From IMG/VR virus record IMGVR_UViG_3300044611_001420: a stretch of 64,000 bases of DNA. One strand, given 5' to 3'. Shown here piece by piece: positions 17,130 through 23,972 of this stretch. Position 1 is the stretch's first letter; every line of letters starts with the position of its first letter. Position numbers and translations under genes: made by a program. The stretch is from a virus. Below the pieces are notes generated by a model. That model ran no database searches. It was not told where the DNA came from and saw nothing but the letters and a program-made list of their open reading frames with translations.

Positions 17130-17834
17130 ATGGCATCAAGAGGACCAGGAGCAGGACAACCTGAAGTTGGTTTTTTGTATAAGACAACAGATGAAGCATT
17201 AGAAATCTTTGGTAAATTATCCCTTACAAGTCAATTTAAGGTATCATTGCACTTGACTAATCGTGGTGATGGTGATTTATTGATGAATTGGTTGGCAGAT
17301 GCAGGAATTACAAGTGATGGAGAATTTTCAAAATTTGACTTTTATTGTGCGGAGACTTCACTTCCTGGCGCAACCTTTGATGTCACGGAAGAGATTGGGT
17401 CACGTCAAGGAGTGATAGAGAGGTTTCCAACTAAAAGAGTTTATCCAGATGTTACAATGACATTTTATGTTGATTATGATTATAAACTCATTCGTCTTTT
17501 TGAAGAATGGATGAATTATATCAATCCTGTTTATACAGATGCTGGAGAAGTTAAAGCAAATTCAAGGGGACAGGGAGACGCAAAAAATCGTCCAGATTTC
17601 TTTAGACTTAAATATCCCGACACATATAAGAGAATTATATCAATTGTAAAATTTGAAAGAGATTTGAATAGAACTAATGATGTGCCAAGAATAACTTATC
17701 GTTTGATTGATGCTTTCCCTACAAACATAGCAGCAATGCCAGTGACTTATGAAGGAAGTACAATCACTAAAACAATAGTTACCTTTAGTTACTCCCGTTA
17801 TGTAATTGAAAAACATAAAACGAGGAGTAAATAA
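17130..17834 (+). CDS. Baseplate tail-tube initiator (gp54-like, gp19 fold)
   Basis: YCAETSLPG...TFYVD...FEEWMNYI...YRLIDAFPTNI...VTFSY. Confidence 0.75.
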   Translation: MASRGPGAGQPEVGFLYKTTDEALEIFGKLSLTSQFKVSLHLTNRGDGDLLMNWLADAGITSDGEFSKFDFYCAETSLPGATFDVTEEIGSRQGVIERFPTKRVYPDVTMTFYVDYDYKLIRLFEEWMNYINPVYTDAGEVKANSRGQGDAKNRPDFFRLKYPDTYKRIISIVKFERDLNRTNDVPRITYRLIDAFPTNIAAMPVTYEGSTITKTIVTFSYSRYVIEKHKTRSK

Positions 17835-17858: not shown

Positions 17859-18587
17859 ATGCCATTACCTAAGATTTCTACACCAACGTATGAATTGGTT
17901 TTGCCATCAACTGGGAAAACAATTAAATACAGACCATTTCTAGTCAAAGAAGAAAAGATATTAATTCTTGCTCTTGAAAGTCAAGATACAAAAGAAATTA
18001 CAAATGCAATCAAGCAAGTATTAAAAGATTGTATTTTAACAAAAGCAATTAAAGTAGAAGAACTTCCAACTTTTGATATTGAATATTTGTTCTTAAACCT
18101 TCGTTCAAAATCTGTTGGTGAGTCTATTGAATTAATTATTACTTGTGGTGATGATATGGAAACTCAAGTTCCAGTCACAATTTATATTGATGAGATTCAA
18201 GTTCAAAAAGAAGAAAATCATAGCACGGATATTAAACTTGATAGTTCTTTAGTTTTAAGAATGAAGTATCCATCTTTAGACCAGTTTATTAAAAATAATT
18301 TTGATTTTAACACAGAGCAAAGTACATCAAATATTGAAAAATCTTTAGATATTATTGCTTCTTGTATTGATATGATCTTTAATGAAGAAGAAAGTTGGGC
18401 AGCATCTGATTGTACTAAAAAAGAATTAGTTTCTTGGATTGAAACACTTGATTCAAATCAATTCAAACAGGTTGAAAACTTTTTTAATACAATGCCAAAA
18501 CTTGCACACAAAGTAAAAGTTAAGAATCCAAAGACTGGAGTGGAAAGTGAAGTTACGTTGGAGGGGTTAACATCTTTTTTCGGTTGA
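17859..18587 (+). CDS. gp26: Baseplate hub assembly protein gp26
   Basis: MPLPKISTPTYEL...YRPFLVKEEKILILA...FDIEYLFLNLRSKSVGE...LEGLTSFF. Confidence 0.92.
   Translation: MPLPKISTPTYELVLPSTGKTIKYRPFLVKEEKILILALESQDTKEITNAIKQVLKDCILTKAIKVEELPTFDIEYLFLNLRSKSVGESIELIITCGDDMETQVPVTIYIDEIQVQKEENHSTDIKLDSSLVLRMKYPSLDQFIKNNFDFNTEQSTSNIEKSLDIIASCIDMIFNEEESWAASDCTKKELVSWIETLDSNQFKQVENFFNTMPKLAHKVKVKNPKTGVESEVTLEGLTSFFG
18560..18581 (+). other. Putative programmed -1 ribosomal frameshift signal (internal SD plus T TTT TTC)
   Basis: GGAGG at 18560-64, a 10-nt spacer, then an in-phase X XXY YYZ heptamer at 18575-81. The -1 frame is open into the gp51 ATG. Confidence 0.55.
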
Positions 18588-18589
18588 GT

Positions 18590-18763
18590 ATGGCTTATAT
18601 GGAATTGGAGTCATACTTTAGAATTAATTTTGCATTACTTCAATTTCATAAATGGCCGATTAGGGATGTTGAAAATATGATGCCTTGGGAAAGAGATATT
18701 TACTTAGCACTTCTCCAACAACATATTGAAGATGAGAAACTAAAACAACAAAATGCTCAATAA
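18590..18763 (+). CDS. gp51: Baseplate hub assembly catalyst gp51 (57 aa, not in ORF track)
   Basis: MAYMELESYFRINFALLQFHKWPIRDVENMMPWERDIYLALLQQHIEDE. Confidence 0.85.
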   Translation: MAYMELESYFRINFALLQFHKWPIRDVENMMPWERDIYLALLQQHIEDEKLKQQNAQ

Positions 18764-18787: not shown

Positions 18788-20563
18788 ATGGTAATAGGTT
18801 CGGTTCTGAACCCAGAAAGAATAGTAGGTAAGCAGAATACAAACCAACAACTCGCCAAAAATTTTATTTCTGGTGGTTCTTTTCTTGGAACATCTTCAAT
18901 TGCTTCTGCTGCAAATAAAATAGTAGGATTTCAAAGAGGGACTGCAAAACCAGTCCCATCTTCAGTAGATTCAATCGTAAGTACTATTTCTACAAATATT
19001 ACAAACAATATAACAAGCACTTTAAATAATACTCTTCAAAGTTTCACTACAGATTATAAGAAAAGAGTATCTGATGTTGATTCTGCGAAACCAACCGGCA
19101 TTCTAAGTAAGTTTTTAAGTACCTATAAGAGTGTAATACAATTCATTCAGTTTTTTGGCAACAAAAAATTTGTGAATAGAATAAGTGACAATTTAAAAAA
19201 TCTTTCTAAATCATTTACAGAAAGTTTTGAAGTTGCAAAATTGATTCGTCAGGTCATTGTAAAAATAGTACAACAATTATCAAATCTTCCAAAAGCATCT
19301 CCAGGTGGTGGAGGTGGAATTGACATTGATGTTGATGTTCCCATGGGTGGTGTCAGAAAGAGCGCACCACGAGGACTTGGTAATATGTTCAAGGGAAGAG
19401 GCAAAATGCTTGCCCTTGGTGCTGGTGCTCTTGGATTGGGTGCTGTTGGTGCTGGCACAGTGAATGCTCTTTCTAATGTTGATGAAATTAGAGCAGGAAT
19501 GCTTCAACCTGGAGATGGTGGAGACATCATATCAACGTTTAGTTCTGCAATAGAAAGATTTATTACAGCAATTAATACAATGATTGGTATTGGAAAGGGT
19601 CCTTCCAAACCTCCTGGTGGTGGTGCAGGAGGTGGTGGGGGAAGTCCTGGAGGTCCTGGTCCTGGAGGTCCTGGTCCTGGATCTCCAGTGGATTATAGTA
19701 ATTTGAAAAGTGGTGATATATCTACTATGGCAGGCAAATCAGCAGTTTTATATGATGAATATAGAAATCTTGGATATACTGATGAGGGAGCAAAAAGATT
19801 AATTGCTGAAATTGGCAGAGAAGGTGGGATGGACAATAAAAACTTGTTTGGAACTCATACTGATCCTTCTGCAAAAATTCCTAATACTGGTATGTTTAGT
19901 TGGAATCAAGATAGAAGAACTGCTTTAATCGATCAGGCCAAAAAGGCTGGGGTTTGGGATGAGACCAAAGGTCAAATAAAAGAAACTGCTGAGGGATTGA
20001 GATTCCAAGCAAGATTTTCTGCAAATGAAATTAAGACGAGAGGTGCTGGAGTTCCTGAAGCATTAACCACTCAAGGTTATTCTGGTGCTAAAATATCACA
20101 ATTACTTAGAGATAAGTATATTGTTTATAGAACTGATCGTGGTTATTCTGGGGGTCCTGATCCAGAATATGGATCAGTTAAAACTGGAGAATGGTATAAA
20201 AAATTGACTCCAGGATTGGAAAAAACATATAAACCAAAACCAGGAATAGGAGGTAGTTATGAGGAATTGCCTAAAGAATATGCTGCAGCATATAAGGCTG
20301 GAAAATTAAAATTAGAAGAATACAACAACTTAGCAACAGGTGTTTCTCAAGTTGCTCAAACAGCAGCACAATCACAAACAAATATTGTACCAATAGATTT
20401 GTCTGGTGCAATGCCTCAACAATCTCAAGGTGGTGGAGGAGGTATTTCTGCACCACCATCAACTCAAAAAAATGGTCCATCAGTTCCATTATTACCTTCT
20501 GCAAACACTGATAATTTTTTAGTTTTATATTCAAGAATGGTTTATAATATAGTAGACGGATAA
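18788..20563 (+). CDS. Hub/tape-measure-like structural protein with a putative tail lysozyme domain
   Basis: Follows gp26 and gp51; helical and Gly-rich N-terminus. GYTDEGAKRLIAEIGREGG...GMFSWNQDRR resembles phage tail lysozyme (Phage_lysozyme2). Confidence 0.6.
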   Translation: MVIGSVLNPERIVGKQNTNQQLAKNFISGGSFLGTSSIASAANKIVGFQRGTAKPVPSSVDSIVSTISTNITNNITSTLNNTLQSFTTDYKKRVSDVDSAKPTGILSKFLSTYKSVIQFIQFFGNKKFVNRISDNLKNLSKSFTESFEVAKLIRQVIVKIVQQLSNLPKASPGGGGGIDIDVDVPMGGVRKSAPRGLGNMFKGRGKMLALGAGALGLGAVGAGTVNALSNVDEIRAGMLQPGDGGDIISTFSSAIERFITAINTMIGIGKGPSKPPGGGAGGGGGSPGGPGPGGPGPGSPVDYSNLKSGDISTMAGKSAVLYDEYRNLGYTDEGAKRLIAEIGREGGMDNKNLFGTHTDPSAKIPNTGMFSWNQDRRTALIDQAKKAGVWDETKGQIKETAEGLRFQARFSANEIKTRGAGVPEALTTQGYSGAKISQLLRDKYIVYRTDRGYSGGPDPEYGSVKTGEWYKKLTPGLEKTYKPKPGIGGSYEELPKEYAAAYKAGKLKLEEYNNLATGVSQVAQTAAQSQTNIVPIDLSGAMPQQSQGGGGGISAPPSTQKNGPSVPLLPSANTDNFLVLYSRMVYNIVDG

Positions 20564-22659
20564 TGAAAAAAGTACTTTCTTCTCCTTTAGTTTCTGCTTC
20601 CAATAACATAGTTTCTTTTAGTGGAGATTCCTCAAGAAGACTAAAAGGAATTCAGAGAGATGTTGTTGATTTCTCTAAGTTTTTAAACACTCAAAATAAA
20701 GAAATTAATAGAATAAAATTACCTGAAAAAAGAAAAATTAAAGAACTTGCGAACTTAAACATTGCTTCAAGTTTTGGTTCTCCTGGAAATTTATTATCAT
20801 CTTTACTTGGAGGGGCACTTGATGTTGCTGGTTTTCTTGGTAATATGTTCCCTCCAAGAGGAAAAATGGGTGCTCCTCAAAATACAAGAGGATTGAGACC
20901 ACCAAAACCAATAGTTTCTGGTTCTAAGTTACAATTTGGAGGACTCAAATCTGTAGGTATTTTGAATGCAGTTTTTTCTGGATTGGATTTTGCTCAGGGA
21001 TTGGCAGAGGGAGAAAGCACAGGTCAAGCAGCATCGGGAGCAGTGGGCAATCTTGCTGGTTCATTACTTGGTGGTGCCATTGGGCAAGCACTAATTCCAA
21101 TACCTGGGCTTGGTTTTGTAATTGGAAGTATGGCAGGTGGATTTTTGGGTGGTTACACCGCAGATAGAGCATATGAACTTGCAACTGGTGGTGCTGGAGG
21201 TGTGTCTGGAAAAGTTGAAGAAAAACTAAAGGCACAAGAACAACAACAAAAGGCATCAGTTCAAGAAAGTGGATTTGGTGATGTAATAAACAGATTTAGT
21301 GACTCTGTAGGAAAGTTTGAAAACTTTGTCTATAAGTCATTTGCTTCTGTGGTAAATGGTGCCGCAGCTGCTGCTGGTTCTGATGAAATGATGTTGGATT
21401 ACGGTTTAGACCCAGATGCAATTCCAGATGCTCCTGAAATTCCAGGAGAACTTCCAGATATGACTGCTGAAGGTGGTCAAATGCCCAGCAAATATACTTC
21501 ATCTCCTTATGGTTGGAGATGGGGAAGAATTCATAGTGGTGTTGATTATGCTATTACGGAAGGAACACCAGTAAGTGTGATTCAACCTGGTCAAGTAACA
21601 TACGCACAATTTAATGATGGTGGGTATGGATATGCTGTACAAATTGCACATCCTGGTGGTTCTAGTAGTTTTTATGGGCACTTAAGTAAAATATCAGTCA
21701 AAGAAGGACAACAAATAGAACCTGGAACTGTAATTGGAAATGTAGGAAGCACAGGAAATTCTACGGGACCTCACGTTCATTTTGAAGTTAGACAAGGAAG
21801 TAAAAAATTAGAAATACCTACAAGTGAGGGAGATAAGTATTTTAGATTCGGTGGCAATGTAAAAGTCAAACCAAAGGCAGGAGTTTCGGGAGCAGGTTCT
21901 AATCCTTTTGTTTTAGAATTACACGCAGACCCAAATGCAAAAGGACAAAAGACAGGATTAATCCCAAGCAATACCAGTCCAGATACTGCTGTTTCTCAAG
22001 CACTTGTTTCTAGTTTCGGGACTTATGGTAAAAATTTTAGAGGAGGATTGGGTGTTACAAATAGAGGTGGAAATATTCTAGAGTCAGATATGGCATTAGG
22101 TGCTGAAGCAAATGCAAAAAGAATAGTTGAAGCAATGATGAAAGACCCTAAACGTGCATATCATATTTTTGCAGGACACGCTGATGTAACAAAAGGTGAA
22201 ACTGGTGCTCCTGGAGAAAAGGAATATAATTTAAAAACTGCTGAATTGGTTGAAAAATTAGCAAAAGCACAGAAATTAAATGTAATGTACCATAAATCTA
22301 TTATTGCAAATGAAGCAAGTGATCCAAATTCAAATCTTTCCAGAATTAAAGCAATAATGGATGCTTCAAAGAGACCTGGAATAGGAGGTCCAGATTTAAC
22401 TCCAGAGGCAATTGCTGCATATCAATCTGGAATGATTCAAAATCTCCAACAATACCCTTCTTATAATCAACTACAACAGGTTACAACAATTATACCAATG
22501 ATGATGAGTCCTCAAGGTGGAGGAGGACAACAAAAACCAGTCTTTATTCCAGTTGGAGGTGGTGGTGGAGGAACTGTAATTCTTCCTGGTCCAGATGAAG
22601 GACAACTGGTAAATAGTCTTATGAAGACTATGTTACTTACTAATCTGTCAGCAAGCTAA
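20563..22659 (+). CDS. Hub/tape-measure-like protein with an M23 peptidase and an amidase-like domain
   Basis: Gly-zipper region GGAIGQALIPIPGLG; M23 motifs HSGVDY, YGHLS and GSTGNSTGPHVHFEVR; then ELHAD and AGHAD...GEKEYN. Confidence 0.8.
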   Translation: MKKVLSSPLVSASNNIVSFSGDSSRRLKGIQRDVVDFSKFLNTQNKEINRIKLPEKRKIKELANLNIASSFGSPGNLLSSLLGGALDVAGFLGNMFPPRGKMGAPQNTRGLRPPKPIVSGSKLQFGGLKSVGILNAVFSGLDFAQGLAEGESTGQAASGAVGNLAGSLLGGAIGQALIPIPGLGFVIGSMAGGFLGGYTADRAYELATGGAGGVSGKVEEKLKAQEQQQKASVQESGFGDVINRFSDSVGKFENFVYKSFASVVNGAAAAAGSDEMMLDYGLDPDAIPDAPEIPGELPDMTAEGGQMPSKYTSSPYGWRWGRIHSGVDYAITEGTPVSVIQPGQVTYAQFNDGGYGYAVQIAHPGGSSSFYGHLSKISVKEGQQIEPGTVIGNVGSTGNSTGPHVHFEVRQGSKKLEIPTSEGDKYFRFGGNVKVKPKAGVSGAGSNPFVLELHADPNAKGQKTGLIPSNTSPDTAVSQALVSSFGTYGKNFRGGLGVTNRGGNILESDMALGAEANAKRIVEAMMKDPKRAYHIFAGHADVTKGETGAPGEKEYNLKTAELVEKLAKAQKLNVMYHKSIIANEASDPNSNLSRIKAIMDASKRPGIGGPDLTPEAIAAYQSGMIQNLQQYPSYNQLQQVTTIIPMMMSPQGGGGQQKPVFIPVGGGGGGTVILPGPDEGQLVNSLMKTMLLTNLSAS

Positions 22660-23972
22660 TGTCACAATCTGTAGCAGCATTTAAACCAAATTATTTTATC
22701 ATACAATCATTAGATGGTAGCAAAAAAATTGATATTACCAATTCATTATTGTTTTTTGATTACTTTGAGGATATTTTATCTCCTTGTATAACTGCTACTG
22801 CACAAATAGTTAATAGTACAAGTTTGTTTAATCTTTTACCAATTCGTGGTGGAGAAAAAGTTTCCATTAGTGTTGATACTGCATTTGGTGAATTTTTATT
22901 TGACGGTGATACTGCTTTTTATGTTTATAAGGTTAGCAATCTTGATGCACAAAAGTCAAGTGAAATGTTCACTTTACACTTAGTTTCTCGTGAAGGTTTG
23001 ACGAATGATACTGTCAGATGTGAAAGAAAATATACAGGTAATATTCAAACTACAGTAACTAAAATTTTAAAGGATGTATTAAAAACTAAAAAGTTTAAAA
23101 GTGAAAATATAGAATCAACATCAAACGAATTTTCTTTTATTGGAAATAATAGAAAACCATTTCACGTTTTGACTTGGTTAGGTCCAAAAGCAGTTCCTGC
23201 AAATGGGCAAAATTCGGGAACATCTGGAGGTGAAAATAGTGGAATAGCAAAGGGAACTGCTGGATTTTTATTTTATGAGAATAAAGACGGTTTTAATTTT
23301 AGAAGTATTGACAGTTTAGTATCAAGCACTCAAATACAAAATAATAGTGCCGATAAGGAGTCAATATATAGTTATCAGTATGCTCCAATCATTGAGAGTA
23401 ATAATGTAGAAACAAATTTTAGAATTTTAAATTATAAGTATGAAAAGAATATTGACTTGATGAAAGCATTGAGAGTTGGTATGTATGCAAATAAAACATA
23501 TTATTTTGATTTGTATTCAAGTACTTTAGATATTTACAAATACACAGTGAAAGATCAAGTCAAGAATAAATTAGGTGCTTCTAAAAGTATTGCTGTATCT
23601 GAAGAATTTGGAGATAGTATTAGTAGAATTATGTTTAAAGCTTCCGATAGAGGAAACTTAAATAATGATGGAACGATAAGTGGTAAGTCTAGAAGTGGTG
23701 CTGATATGTCAATGTCTTATTCTAGATATAATTTATTGTTCACTCAAGCACTAAATATGGTTATACCTTGTAACATAAGATTGAAAGTTGGAGATATTAT
23801 AAAGGCACAGTTTCCAAGAATCACAAGAACAGACAATAAAGAAGCAGATGACGAACAGAGTGGAAACTACTTGATTAAAGAATTAAGACATCATTTTGAA
23901 GGAAACCAAATGGTTACAAGTGTAAAACTAATTCGTGATAGTTACGGTCTTTATGGTCCTCAAAACGAGTAA
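22659..23972 (+). CDS. Baseplate hub protein (gp27/late-control-D-like)
   Basis: YFEDILSP...FLFYENKDGFNFRSIDSL...SGNYLIKELRHHF...LIRDSYG; sits before gp5. Confidence 0.7.
   Translation: MSQSVAAFKPNYFIIQSLDGSKKIDITNSLLFFDYFEDILSPCITATAQIVNSTSLFNLLPIRGGEKVSISVDTAFGEFLFDGDTAFYVYKVSNLDAQKSSEMFTLHLVSREGLTNDTVRCERKYTGNIQTTVTKILKDVLKTKKFKSENIESTSNEFSFIGNNRKPFHVLTWLGPKAVPANGQNSGTSGGENSGIAKGTAGFLFYENKDGFNFRSIDSLVSSTQIQNNSADKESIYSYQYAPIIESNNVETNFRILNYKYEKNIDLMKALRVGMYANKTYYFDLYSSTLDIYKYTVKDQVKNKLGASKSIAVSEEFGDSISRIMFKASDRGNLNNDGTISGKSRSGADMSMSYSRYNLLFTQALNMVIPCNIRLKVGDIIKAQFPRITRTDNKEADDEQSGNYLIKELRHHFEGNQMVTSVKLIRDSYGLYGPQNE

What the first reader, a model, noticed from the sequence alone, without database searches (positions are those of the whole stretch)
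18555..18763. Candidate programmed -1 frameshift fusing gp26 to gp51, a G/GT-type tail chaperone arrangement in a T4-like phage
Seen: gp26 ends GAG GGG TTA ACA TCT TTT TTC GGT TGA GT ATG. T TTT TTC (18575-81) is an X XXY YYZ heptamer in the correct phase. A -1 slip reads TTT TTT CGG TTG AGT ATG GCT with no stop, in frame with the 57-aa gp51. GGAGG lies 10 nt upstream of the heptamer, and gp51 has no obvious SD at normal spacing. The next genes are tape-measure-like. Known: long-tailed phages make G and GT tail chaperones by a -1 frameshift just before the tape measure gene (lambda G/T, P2 E/E' on a T run), and an internal SD about 10 nt upstream stimulates -1 slips (E. coli dnaX). Inference: gp26 and gp51 here are G/GT equivalents making a fusion of about 300 aa. 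I do not know of this being described for T4-like cyanophages.
Basis: partly seen in the sequence, partly recalled or inferred. Interest (0 to 1): 0.8.

Follow-up and report, generated by a model that had tools for sequence, protein, structure and literature searches.

The report
Frameshift in T4-like baseplate-hub chaperone gene
One tail-assembly gene of this T4-like cyanophage very probably makes a 242-residue and a 301-residue protein because some ribosomes slip back one base on a strictly conserved TTTTTTC, which does with one gene what phage T4 does with its two genes 26 and 51.

Summary
The gp26-like ORF (17859-18587) ends TCT TTT TTC GGT TGA. T TTT TTC (18575-81) is in X XXY YYZ phase, and the -1 frame runs open into the 57-aa 'gp51' ORF.

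One heptamer alone is not beyond chance (37 in the window). Conservation makes the case:
- All 77 distinct IMG/VR relatives (63-96% aa identity) keep TTTTTTC and the -1 phase.
- The codon before it always ends in T, although its amino acid varies.
- The next -1 codon is almost always Arg (CGN), while the 0-frame residue varies.
- 15 of 77 close relatives and all 19 of a distant clade have Leu, not ATG, at the 'gp51 start'.
- The same site occurs in KVP40-type, Aeromonas and Cronobacter T4-like phages.

The 301-aa fusion aligns collinearly with T-even gp51. That protein is itself a gp26 paralogue (PF12322) with a C-terminal extension.

The N-terminal domain of gp26 resembles solved tail assembly chaperones (Z 7.3-7.8). 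This supports the G/GT analogy but does not prove it.

I found no paper or record describing the slip. A 2016 review lists T4 as the exception to G-T frameshifting.

This scan has already noted the same feature on other DNA, in at least 335 genomes.

The parts
17130..17834 (+). Tail-tube-family gene (gp54-like tube initiator, 234 aa) immediately upstream of gp26
   Evidence: Pfam PF23849 Phage_TTP_2 at 1e-16 and phrog_45 'tail tube' at 7.7e-34. The gene is conserved directly upstream of gp26 in the related loci. It is annotated gp54 in phage nt-1 and Aeromonas AsFcp_2.
17859..18587 (+). gp26-like baseplate-hub assembly chaperone, the short 0-frame product (242 aa, stop TGA at 18585-18587)
   Evidence: PF12322 T4_baseplate at 1.7e-72 and phrog_150 at 1.7e-78. 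The AF2 model has pLDDT 93.5. Residues 1-95 resemble HK97 TAC 2ob9, YqbN 3klu and 3fgx at Z 7.3-7.8.
18560..18565 (+). Shine-Dalgarno-like GGAGGG (codons of L-E-G), 10 nt upstream of the slip site; a possible stimulator
   Evidence: Sequence. Glu is GAG in 65 of 77 loci at this codon, against 27% GAG elsewhere in the gene. (G)AGG persists at the same distance where the residues are LRG or LKG. It is absent as GGAGG in about 15% of loci.
18575..18581 (+). Slippery heptamer T TTT TTC, the proposed -1 frameshift site
   Evidence: Kept in 77 of 77 distinct loci. Distant clades carry T TTT TTC, TTA or TTT. The preceding codon always ends in T across at least 8 different codons.
18586..18618 (+). 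Predicted RNA hairpin (11 bp, 11-nt loop) starting 4 nt after the heptamer. It buries the ATG at 18590 and is a possible stimulator.
   Evidence: Free energy -11.5 kcal/mol, z -3.69, and 0 of 200 shuffles fold as well. A hairpin at this place has z below -1.5 in 60 of 73 relatives. Covariation is partial (UA/AU/GC at columns 33-47, GU/UG at 31-49). RNAalifold finds no consensus structure.
18581..18763 (+). -1 frame continuation (R-L-S plus the 57-aa 'gp51' ORF, stop TAA at 18761-18763). This is the C-terminal extension of the 301-aa long form.
   Evidence: phrog_634 'baseplate hub assembly catalyst' at 2.6e-23, and also phrog_150 positions 240-280. hhalign places it on T-even gp51 residues 208-245 at E 3.5e-5. 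The fusion aligns collinearly to gp51 residues 14-245.
18788..22659 (+). Two large Gly-rich genes (591 aa and 698 aa) downstream. They are tape-measure-like candidates carrying lysozyme-like and M23 peptidase domains.
   Evidence: Peptidase_M23 at 1.6e-29 and several 'tail length tape measure' PHROGs for the 698-aa protein. Their identity as the tape measure was not established here.
22659..23972 (+). Tail/hub protein (437 aa)
   Evidence: phrog_350 'tail protein' at 1.2e-97. P-SSM2 has the same gene order, followed by gp5.

Best explanation
Gene 26 of this T4-like cyanophage (Kyanoviridae) is decoded in two ways.

Most ribosomes stop at TGA 18585 and make the 242-aa gp26-type hub assembly chaperone. 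A minority slip back one base with tRNA-Phe on T TTT TTC (18575-81). They read CGG TTG AGT ATG... and finish at 18763. The result is a 301-aa protein whose last 60 residues include the ORF annotated 'gp51'.

The slip is probably helped by the GGAGG 10 nt upstream and by a hairpin starting 4 nt downstream. The hairpin also buries the ATG.

The short and long forms correspond to T4 gp26 and T4 gp51. T-even phages encode these as two paralogous genes.

By analogy with lambda G/GT, the shared body would hold the tape-measure or hub proteins, and the helical extension would recruit another tail component. This functional step is inferred.

Shown here: the site, its phase, its conservation, the missing start codons in many lineages, the collinearity with gp51, and the TAC-like N-domain.

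Inferred: that slipping occurs, its efficiency, the stimulators and the binding partners.
For: (1) Anatomy at the stated coordinates is confirmed.

(2) In 77 distinct IMG/VR loci at 63-96% aa identity, TTTTTTC is present in 77 of 77. The first Phe is TTT and the second TTC in all of them, although Phe elsewhere in the gene is 73% TTT and 27% TTC. The downstream ORF is always in the -1 frame.

(3) The codon before the run is AGT, TCT, GCT, GGT or AAT, and GAT or ACT in distant clades. The amino acid varies but the third base is always T.

(4) The codon after the run in the -1 frame is CGN (Arg) in 75 of 77, while the 0-frame residue there varies among G, A, V, E and S. Selection therefore acts on the -1 frame upstream of the supposed start.

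(5) In 15 of 77 close loci, in all 19 loci of a 28-44% identity clade, and in Cronobacter LPCS28, Aeromonas AsFcp_2 and phage C48C1, the position of the ATG is Leu or another residue. In three of those isolate records the region is unannotated or annotated as a truncated ORF.

(6) The Z base of the heptamer is C, A or T, and the T6 run is never broken.

(7) T-even gp51 (249 aa) matches PF12322 over residues 2-200 at 3e-58, like gp26. The window's fusion aligns to it across the junction without a gap (E 1e-6). The profile of the 57-aa family matches gp51 residues 208-245 (E 3.5e-5).

(8) Sullivan et al. 2010 (PMC3037559) recorded that cyanophage and marine vibriophage gp51 lack the first ~200 aa, without explaining it.

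(9) The hairpin and SD-like element sit at frameshift-typical spacing.

(10) Full-length matches among the top 150 of 4592 family clusters (50% identity level) end within 1-2 residues of the FF motif.

(11) The three best structural matches of gp26 residues 1-95 include two phage or prophage tail assembly chaperones. They stand about 3 Z units above unrelated rows (also the only high-probability Foldseek row).
Against: No direct evidence of the long product exists: no proteomics, ribosome profiling or reporter data. In the window itself an ATG lies 2 nt after the stop, so coupled re-initiation could yield a free 57-aa peptide as well or instead. The heptamer alone is not rarer than chance in this genome. 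The hairpin is absent or different in about 18% of relatives, and RNAalifold finds no consensus. GGAGG is not universal. The related loci are not independent samples, so the counts overstate statistical weight. The structural match to tail assembly chaperones is below Z 8 and covers one domain only. There is no sequence similarity to lambda G/T.
Confidence: 0.85

Rival explanations
1. There is no recoding. The 57-aa ORF is a separate small protein, translated from its own ATG (18590) by termination-reinitiation coupling 2 nt after the gp26 stop. The T run merely encodes Phe-Phe.
For: 61 of 77 close loci, including the window, have an ATG 2 nt after the stop. GenBank and RefSeq annotate two separate CDSs. 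Cyanophage genes often lack strong SD sequences (general knowledge).
Against: 15 of 77 close loci, 19 of 19 distant loci and three isolate phages have no start codon there. Arg is conserved in the -1 frame upstream of the ATG. The third-base T and the TTT-TTC codon choice are invariant, which a Phe-Phe requirement alone does not explain. The ATG lies inside a stable hairpin. T-even gp51 carries the homologous segment fused to a gp26-like body.
Confidence: 0.07
2. The same 301-aa fusion is made, but by transcriptional slippage. RNA polymerase adds one extra U on the T6 run, so a fraction of mRNAs carry the two ORFs in frame.
For: A homopolymer run is required, and insertion of one U gives exactly the same protein sequence (inference). 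One distant locus (L110) and phage C48C1 have T7-T8 runs.
Against: Six T is shorter than the runs of about 9 known to give efficient slippage by bacterial RNA polymerase (general knowledge). The Z base is mostly C, not T, so the run is not lengthened although that would be synonymous for Phe. Ribosome-specific features accompany the site: an SD-like element at about 10 nt and a hairpin at 4-8 nt.
Confidence: 0.06
3. The run and the phase are a chance coincidence with no function, frozen by recent common ancestry.
For: TTTTTTC is common in this genome, and the loci are related.
Against: The pattern holds down to 28% protein identity and across Kyanoviridae and several Straboviridae genera, where synonymous sites are saturated elsewhere in the gene.
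Confidence: 0.01

Closest known systems
Lambda gpG/gpGT, P2 gpE/gpE+E' and the conserved -1 frameshift of tail assembly chaperone genes (Xu, Hendrix & Duda 2004, cited in PMC9024508; reviewed in Atkins et al. 2016, PMC5009743)
   Same: There is a -1 slip on an in-phase heptamer near the 3' end of a chaperone gene. The gene lies between a tube-family gene and tape-measure-like genes. It gives a short product and a C-terminally extended product that share their N-terminal body. The N-terminal domain of gp26 has a TAC-like fold.
   Different: There is no sequence similarity. gp26 is larger (242 aa) and has extra zinc-ribbon-like and helical domains. The extension is only about 60 aa. The T4 counterparts act in hub assembly, not shown to act in tube polymerisation. 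Binding partners are untested. The 2016 review explicitly lists T4 as the exception.
Phage T4 / T-even gp26 (208 aa) and gp51 (249 aa), baseplate hub assembly chaperones (Leiman et al. 2010, PMC3004832)
   Same: They belong to the same Pfam family, PF12322. The short form corresponds to gp26. The long form is collinear with gp51, including its C-terminal extension.
   Different: T-even phages use two separate, divergently transcribed paralogous genes and no slippery run. Gene 26 there ends GAA TTC TTT GAG TTA CTA TAA and is followed by gene 25. Here one gene plus recoding gives both forms.
E. coli dnaX -1 frameshift (A AAA AAG with an upstream SD and a downstream hairpin)
   Same: The three-part layout matches: an SD-like GGAGG about 10 nt upstream, a homopolymeric heptamer, and a hairpin a few nt downstream.
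   Different: In dnaX the shifted frame stops almost at once and gives a shorter protein, whereas here it gives a longer one. The stimulators here are only partly conserved.
HIV-1 gag-pol U UUU UUA slip site
   Same: A distant clade of this family uses exactly T TTT TTA. The tRNA-Phe slippage chemistry is the same (general knowledge).
   Different: It is a eukaryotic viral context, unrelated in proteins and purpose.

Membership tests
G/GT-type tail assembly chaperone frameshift | [quoted passage not shown] | tested here: met
   T TTT TTC at 18575-81 lies two codons before the stop, and the -1 frame is open to 18763.
G/GT-type tail assembly chaperone frameshift | Slip site and frame relation conserved among diverged relatives despite low sequence similarity | tested here: met
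   Kept in 77 of 77 close loci, 19 of 19 distant loci, and in KVP40-type, Angelvirus, Nanhuvirus and C48C1 genomes.
G/GT-type tail assembly chaperone frameshift | Position between the tail tube gene and the tape measure gene | tested here: inconclusive
   A tube-family (gp54-like) gene lies directly upstream. The downstream 591-aa and 698-aa genes hit tape-measure PHROGs only through enzyme domains, so the tape measure was not identified with certainty.
G/GT-type tail assembly chaperone frameshift | Chaperone fold shared with solved tail assembly chaperones | tested here: inconclusive
   Residues 1-95 match 3fgx (Z 7.8), YqbN 3klu (Z 7.4) and HK97 TAC 2ob9 (Z 7.3, 85 aligned residues). These are the top rows, about 3 Z units above unrelated ones. 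Foldseek gives 2ob9 probability 0.77 but E 0.8. Z is below 8.
G/GT-type tail assembly chaperone frameshift | Both products made in vivo, the long form in minor amount, neither in the virion | not testable with these tools
   This needs proteomics or reporters. T4 gp51 is absent from particles (PMC3004832).
G/GT-type tail assembly chaperone frameshift | Shared body binds the tape measure; the extension binds the tube protein | not testable with these tools
   No binding data are available.
Pfam PF12322 T4_baseplate (gp26/gp51 family) | Profile match above the curated cut-off over the whole domain | tested here: met
   244 bits against a cut-off of 24.5, covering residues 9-241.
Orthologue of full-length T4 gp51 | gp26-like body followed, in one polypeptide, by the gp51 C-terminal segment | tested here: met
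   This is met only by the -1 fusion. BLASTP aligns residues 23-288 of the fusion to gp51 residues 14-245 across the junction. hhalign places the 57-aa profile on gp51 residues 208-245. The 57-aa ORF alone covers about 20% of gp51 (PMC3037559).
dnaX-type stimulated -1 frameshift | SD-like element about 10 nt upstream and a stem-loop 5-9 nt downstream | tested here: inconclusive
   GGAGG lies 10 nt upstream, and GAG is enriched at that codon (65 of 77 against 27% background). A hairpin has z -3.69 in the window and z below -1.5 in 60 of 73 relatives, but there is no consensus structure.

The most novel reading that the evidence does not exclude
The G/GT-type chaperone frameshift is ancestral to the whole T4 superfamily. 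gp26 is a true, much-elaborated homologue of lambda-type tail assembly chaperones. T-even phages are the derived state: they duplicated the gene and hard-wired the long form as gene 51. If so, the one textbook exception ('except T4') disappears, and the role of the T4 'hub assembly catalyst' gp51 becomes that of a GT protein.
Probability: 0.5. Interest if true: 0.75.

Novelty: new member of a known kind. Interest (0 to 1): 0.66.

Why it matters
This would explain a recorded oddity: cyanophage and marine vibriophage 'gp51' is only about 20% as long as T4 gp51 (Sullivan et al. 2010).

It would correct the annotation of hundreds of isolate genomes and thousands of metagenomic contigs. In those records the extension is called a separate gene, is truncated to an internal Met, or is left unannotated.

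It would remove the stated exception of T4-type phages to the otherwise general tail-chaperone frameshift.

It would give a concrete, testable role (a G/GT-like pair) to T4 gp26 and gp51, whose mechanism in hub assembly has been unclear since the 1970s.

It also shows two evolutionary solutions to one need: recoding versus gene duplication.

Tried and rejected
1. RNAalifold on 73 junctions gave no consensus structure. The hairpin is clade-specific, so I do not claim a universal stimulator.

2. Complex prediction of the 57-aa extension with the upstream gp54-like tube protein gave no verdict (score 0.00, controls not run). It counts neither for nor against binding.

3. Foldseek against the PDB gave no match at E 0.001 or better. 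A profile search of PDB sequences gave only chance-level rows, so no gp26 or gp51 structure is solved.

4. An AF2 model of a natural 301-aa in-frame form (P0271), built on a composite alignment, was poor (pLDDT 73, and below 50 over much of residues 149-247). I use it only to say that the extension is predicted helical.

5. The search for related loci with phage nt-1 gp26 found only 2 loci.

I could not see whether the two database 'fused' proteins (P0271, P0272) are true fusions or homopolymer sequencing errors. They are 2 clusters among thousands, so I give them no weight.

7. Pfam PF28602, precomputed on those two proteins, is not in the local library. The 57-aa ORF has no Pfam hit in the local copy.

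8. Seven literature searches found no paper proposing this frameshift. The library lacks most subscription journals, and I did not read Xu et al. 2004 itself.

9. I rejected the idea that T4 itself uses the slip. T-even gene 26 has no run and is followed by gene 25.

Full report
**What is there**

The window is a structural-gene block of a T4-like cyanophage. Its nearest isolate relatives are Prochlorococcus and Synechococcus myoviruses of the Kyanoviridae at about 70% nucleotide identity.

On the + strand the gene order is as follows:
- A tail-tube-family gene at 17130-17834 (Phage_TTP_2, phrog_45). It is called gp54 in vibriophage nt-1 and Aeromonas AsFcp_2.
- A gp26-type gene at 17859-18587 (PF12322 T4_baseplate, 1.7e-72).
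- A 57-aa ORF at 18590-18763 (phrog_634, 'baseplate hub assembly catalyst').
- Two large Gly-rich genes of 591 and 698 aa, with lysozyme-like and M23 domains.
- A hub or tail protein of 437 aa.

P-SSM2 has the same order, followed by gp5, and its RefSeq record lists gp26 and gp51 as two separate CDSs.

**Check of the observation**

The sequence reads TTG GAG GGG TTA ACA TCT TTT TTC GGT TGA GT ATG. T TTT TTC lies at 18575-81 in X XXY YYZ phase. After a -1 slip the reading CGG TTG AGT ATG... is open to 18763. GGAGG lies 10 nt upstream of the heptamer. The fusion is 301 aa.

Taken alone, the heptamer is not remarkable. There are 37 copies in the window against 46 expected.

**Conservation**

I fetched 80 IMG/VR loci encoding gp26 relatives at 63-96% identity, which gave 77 distinct junctions. 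The results:
- Every one has TTTTTTC. The codons are always TTT then TTC, although Phe elsewhere in the same genes is 73% TTT and 27% TTC.
- The downstream ORF is always in the -1 frame.
- In 76 of 77 the stop follows one codon after the run, and in one it follows after two codons.
- The codon before the run encodes Ser (AGT or TCT), Ala (GCT), Gly (GGT) or Asn (AAT), but always ends in T.
- The codon after the run, read in the -1 frame, is CGN (Arg) in 75 of 77. Read in the 0 frame it is Gly, Ala, Val, Glu or Ser.

The variation in the last point is synonymous in the -1 frame and non-synonymous in the 0 frame. So the -1 frame is already under selection upstream of the supposed gp51 start.

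In 15 of 77 loci the 'start' codon is CTN (Leu).

A second scan with a 36%-identical family member gave 19 more loci at 28-44% identity. All keep the T6 run, with Z = C, A or T. T TTT TTA is the HIV-1 type. All read FFRIAL(L/S)H... in the -1 frame with no Met.

Isolate genomes outside the cyanophages show the same pattern:
- KVP40-type vibriophages: GAT TTT TTC GTA TAA.
- Aeromonas AsFcp_2 and Cronobacter LPCS28: GAT TTT TTC GAT TGA or TAA. There is no ATG, and the region is left unannotated.
- Phage C48C1: GAT TTT TTT TAA. The 'catalyst' is annotated as a 35-aa stub starting at an internal Met.

The loci are related, so the counts are not independent trials. Even so, the pattern survives to divergences at which synonymous sites elsewhere in the gene are scrambled.

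**What the long form is**

In a T-even-type phage (Mosigvirus APCEc01), gene 26 (208 aa) is followed by gene 25. Gene 51 (249 aa) is transcribed divergently, ahead of genes 27-28-29. Its gene 26 ends GAA TTC TTT GAG TTA CTA TAA, with no run.

Pfam places gp51 residues 2-200 in the same family as gp26 (3e-58). So gp51 is a gp26 paralogue with a roughly 49-aa tail.

The window's fusion aligns to that gp51 from residue 14 to residue 245, straight across the junction: SFFRLSMAYMELESYFRIN aligns with EVFKLLVNPDEIFTFYQIN (E 1e-6). A profile of the 57-aa family matches gp51 residues 208-245 (E 3.5e-5). The 57-aa ORF also hits the tail of the gp26/gp51 PHROG.

Sullivan et al. 2010 noted that cyanophage and marine vibriophage gp51 lack the first ~200 residues, and offered no explanation. 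The frameshift supplies exactly those residues.

**Possible stimulators**

The Glu codon of the L-E-G motif is GAG in 65 of 77 loci, against 27% elsewhere. This creates (G)GAGG about 10 nt upstream. Where the residues are LRG or LKG, the bases are still CGA GG or AAA GG. The element is enriched but not universal.

Downstream, the window folds into an 11-bp hairpin at 18586-18618 (-11.5 kcal/mol, z -3.69, 0 of 200 shuffles as good). It contains the ATG.

60 of 73 relatives have a hairpin with z below -1.5 starting 4-8 nt after the run. Some pairs covary, with UA, AU and GC at one pair, two of these changes costing an amino-acid change. But one subclade uses a different hairpin (GGTCC ATAT GGACC), the Leu-start lineages mostly lack one, and RNAalifold returns no consensus. 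I therefore treat both elements as probable, lineage-dependent enhancers.

**Is it G/GT-like?**

T4 gp26 and gp51 are listed as hub assembly chaperones, and gp51 is absent from the particle (PMC3004832).

An AF2 model of the window's gp26 is confident (pLDDT 93.5). A search that does not rely on Foldseek puts three proteins on top for residues 1-95: 3fgx (Z 7.8), B. subtilis prophage YqbN 3klu (Z 7.4) and the HK97 tail assembly chaperone 2ob9 (Z 7.3, 85 of 104 residues). A phage-satellite protein follows at Z 5.3, and unrelated rows score 4.5 or less. In Foldseek, 2ob9 is the only row with high probability and low rmsd, but its E-value is 0.8.

That YqbN/XkdN is a tail assembly chaperone rests on my own knowledge.

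These scores are below the level at which fold identity is safe, and there is no sequence similarity. I therefore rate 'works like G/GT' at about 0.6 and 'is homologous to G' at about 0.5.

Atkins et al. 2016 state that G-T frameshifting is conserved among long-tailed phages 'except T4'.

**Rivals**

Independent or coupled initiation at the ATG may occur in ATG-bearing lineages such as this window. It cannot be the general mechanism, given the Leu-start lineages and the -1 frame selection upstream of the ATG.

Transcriptional insertion of one U would give the same protein. Three things argue against it: six T is short for that mechanism, Z is usually C, and ribosome-type stimulators are present.

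**Prior knowledge and earlier scan notes**

Seven literature searches found no description of this slip. The records I inspected annotate two genes or none.

This scan's own index holds 379 notes with the same reading, in at least 335 other genomes. I took two leads from them, the 'except T4' statement and the TAC-like fold, and checked both myself.

**Verdict**

It is a new member of the known class of tail-chaperone frameshifts, in the one phage group where that frameshift was thought absent.

Noticed in passing
L082:3290-3480 (Salmonella phage Vi01) and L090:2200-2400 (Vibrio phage K413): A homologous -1-frame extension (…MPWH…) follows gp26, but the site is GAA ATT TTC ATT TAA or TCA CTT TTC AAG TAA. 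This is not an X XXY YYZ heptamer. In Vi01 the 500-nt stretch after gp26 is unannotated. The slip mechanism there, if any, is unexplained.
   Followed up: partly
P0271, P0272 (database proteins): Two metagenomic proteins of 301 and 306 aa carry gp26 and the extension in one frame, with the junction ...IFFRVAMVHM.... They have a precomputed Pfam family PF28602 on the tail that is absent from the local Pfam copy. They may be true fusions or homopolymer sequencing errors.
   Followed up: partly
window, whole: Of 37 TTTTTTC copies, only 9 are on the + strand, which is the coding strand of most genes here. The sense-strand run may be avoided in coding sequence, or this may only reflect strand composition.
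   Followed up: no
L088:2211-2375, L089:2217-2384, L087:2208-2387: The GenBank records of Cronobacter phage LPCS28 and Aeromonas phage AsFcp_2 leave the extension unannotated. Phage C48C1 annotates a 35-aa stub. These annotation gaps are caused by the missing start codon.
   Followed up: yes
window 18788-22659: There are two adjacent large Gly-rich proteins (591 and 698 aa). One has a weak phage-lysozyme match and the other a strong M23 peptidase domain plus a weak amidase match. Which of them, if either, is the tape measure (the T4 gp29 counterpart) is unclear.
   Followed up: partly
window 17859-18587 versus L081, L082, L083: T-even, Vi01 and nt-1 gp26 carry CxxC...CPxCG zinc-ribbon cysteines. 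The cyanophage protein has lost most of them (VKNPKTG in place of KCPKCG), yet the model keeps the beta-hairpin fold.
   Followed up: no
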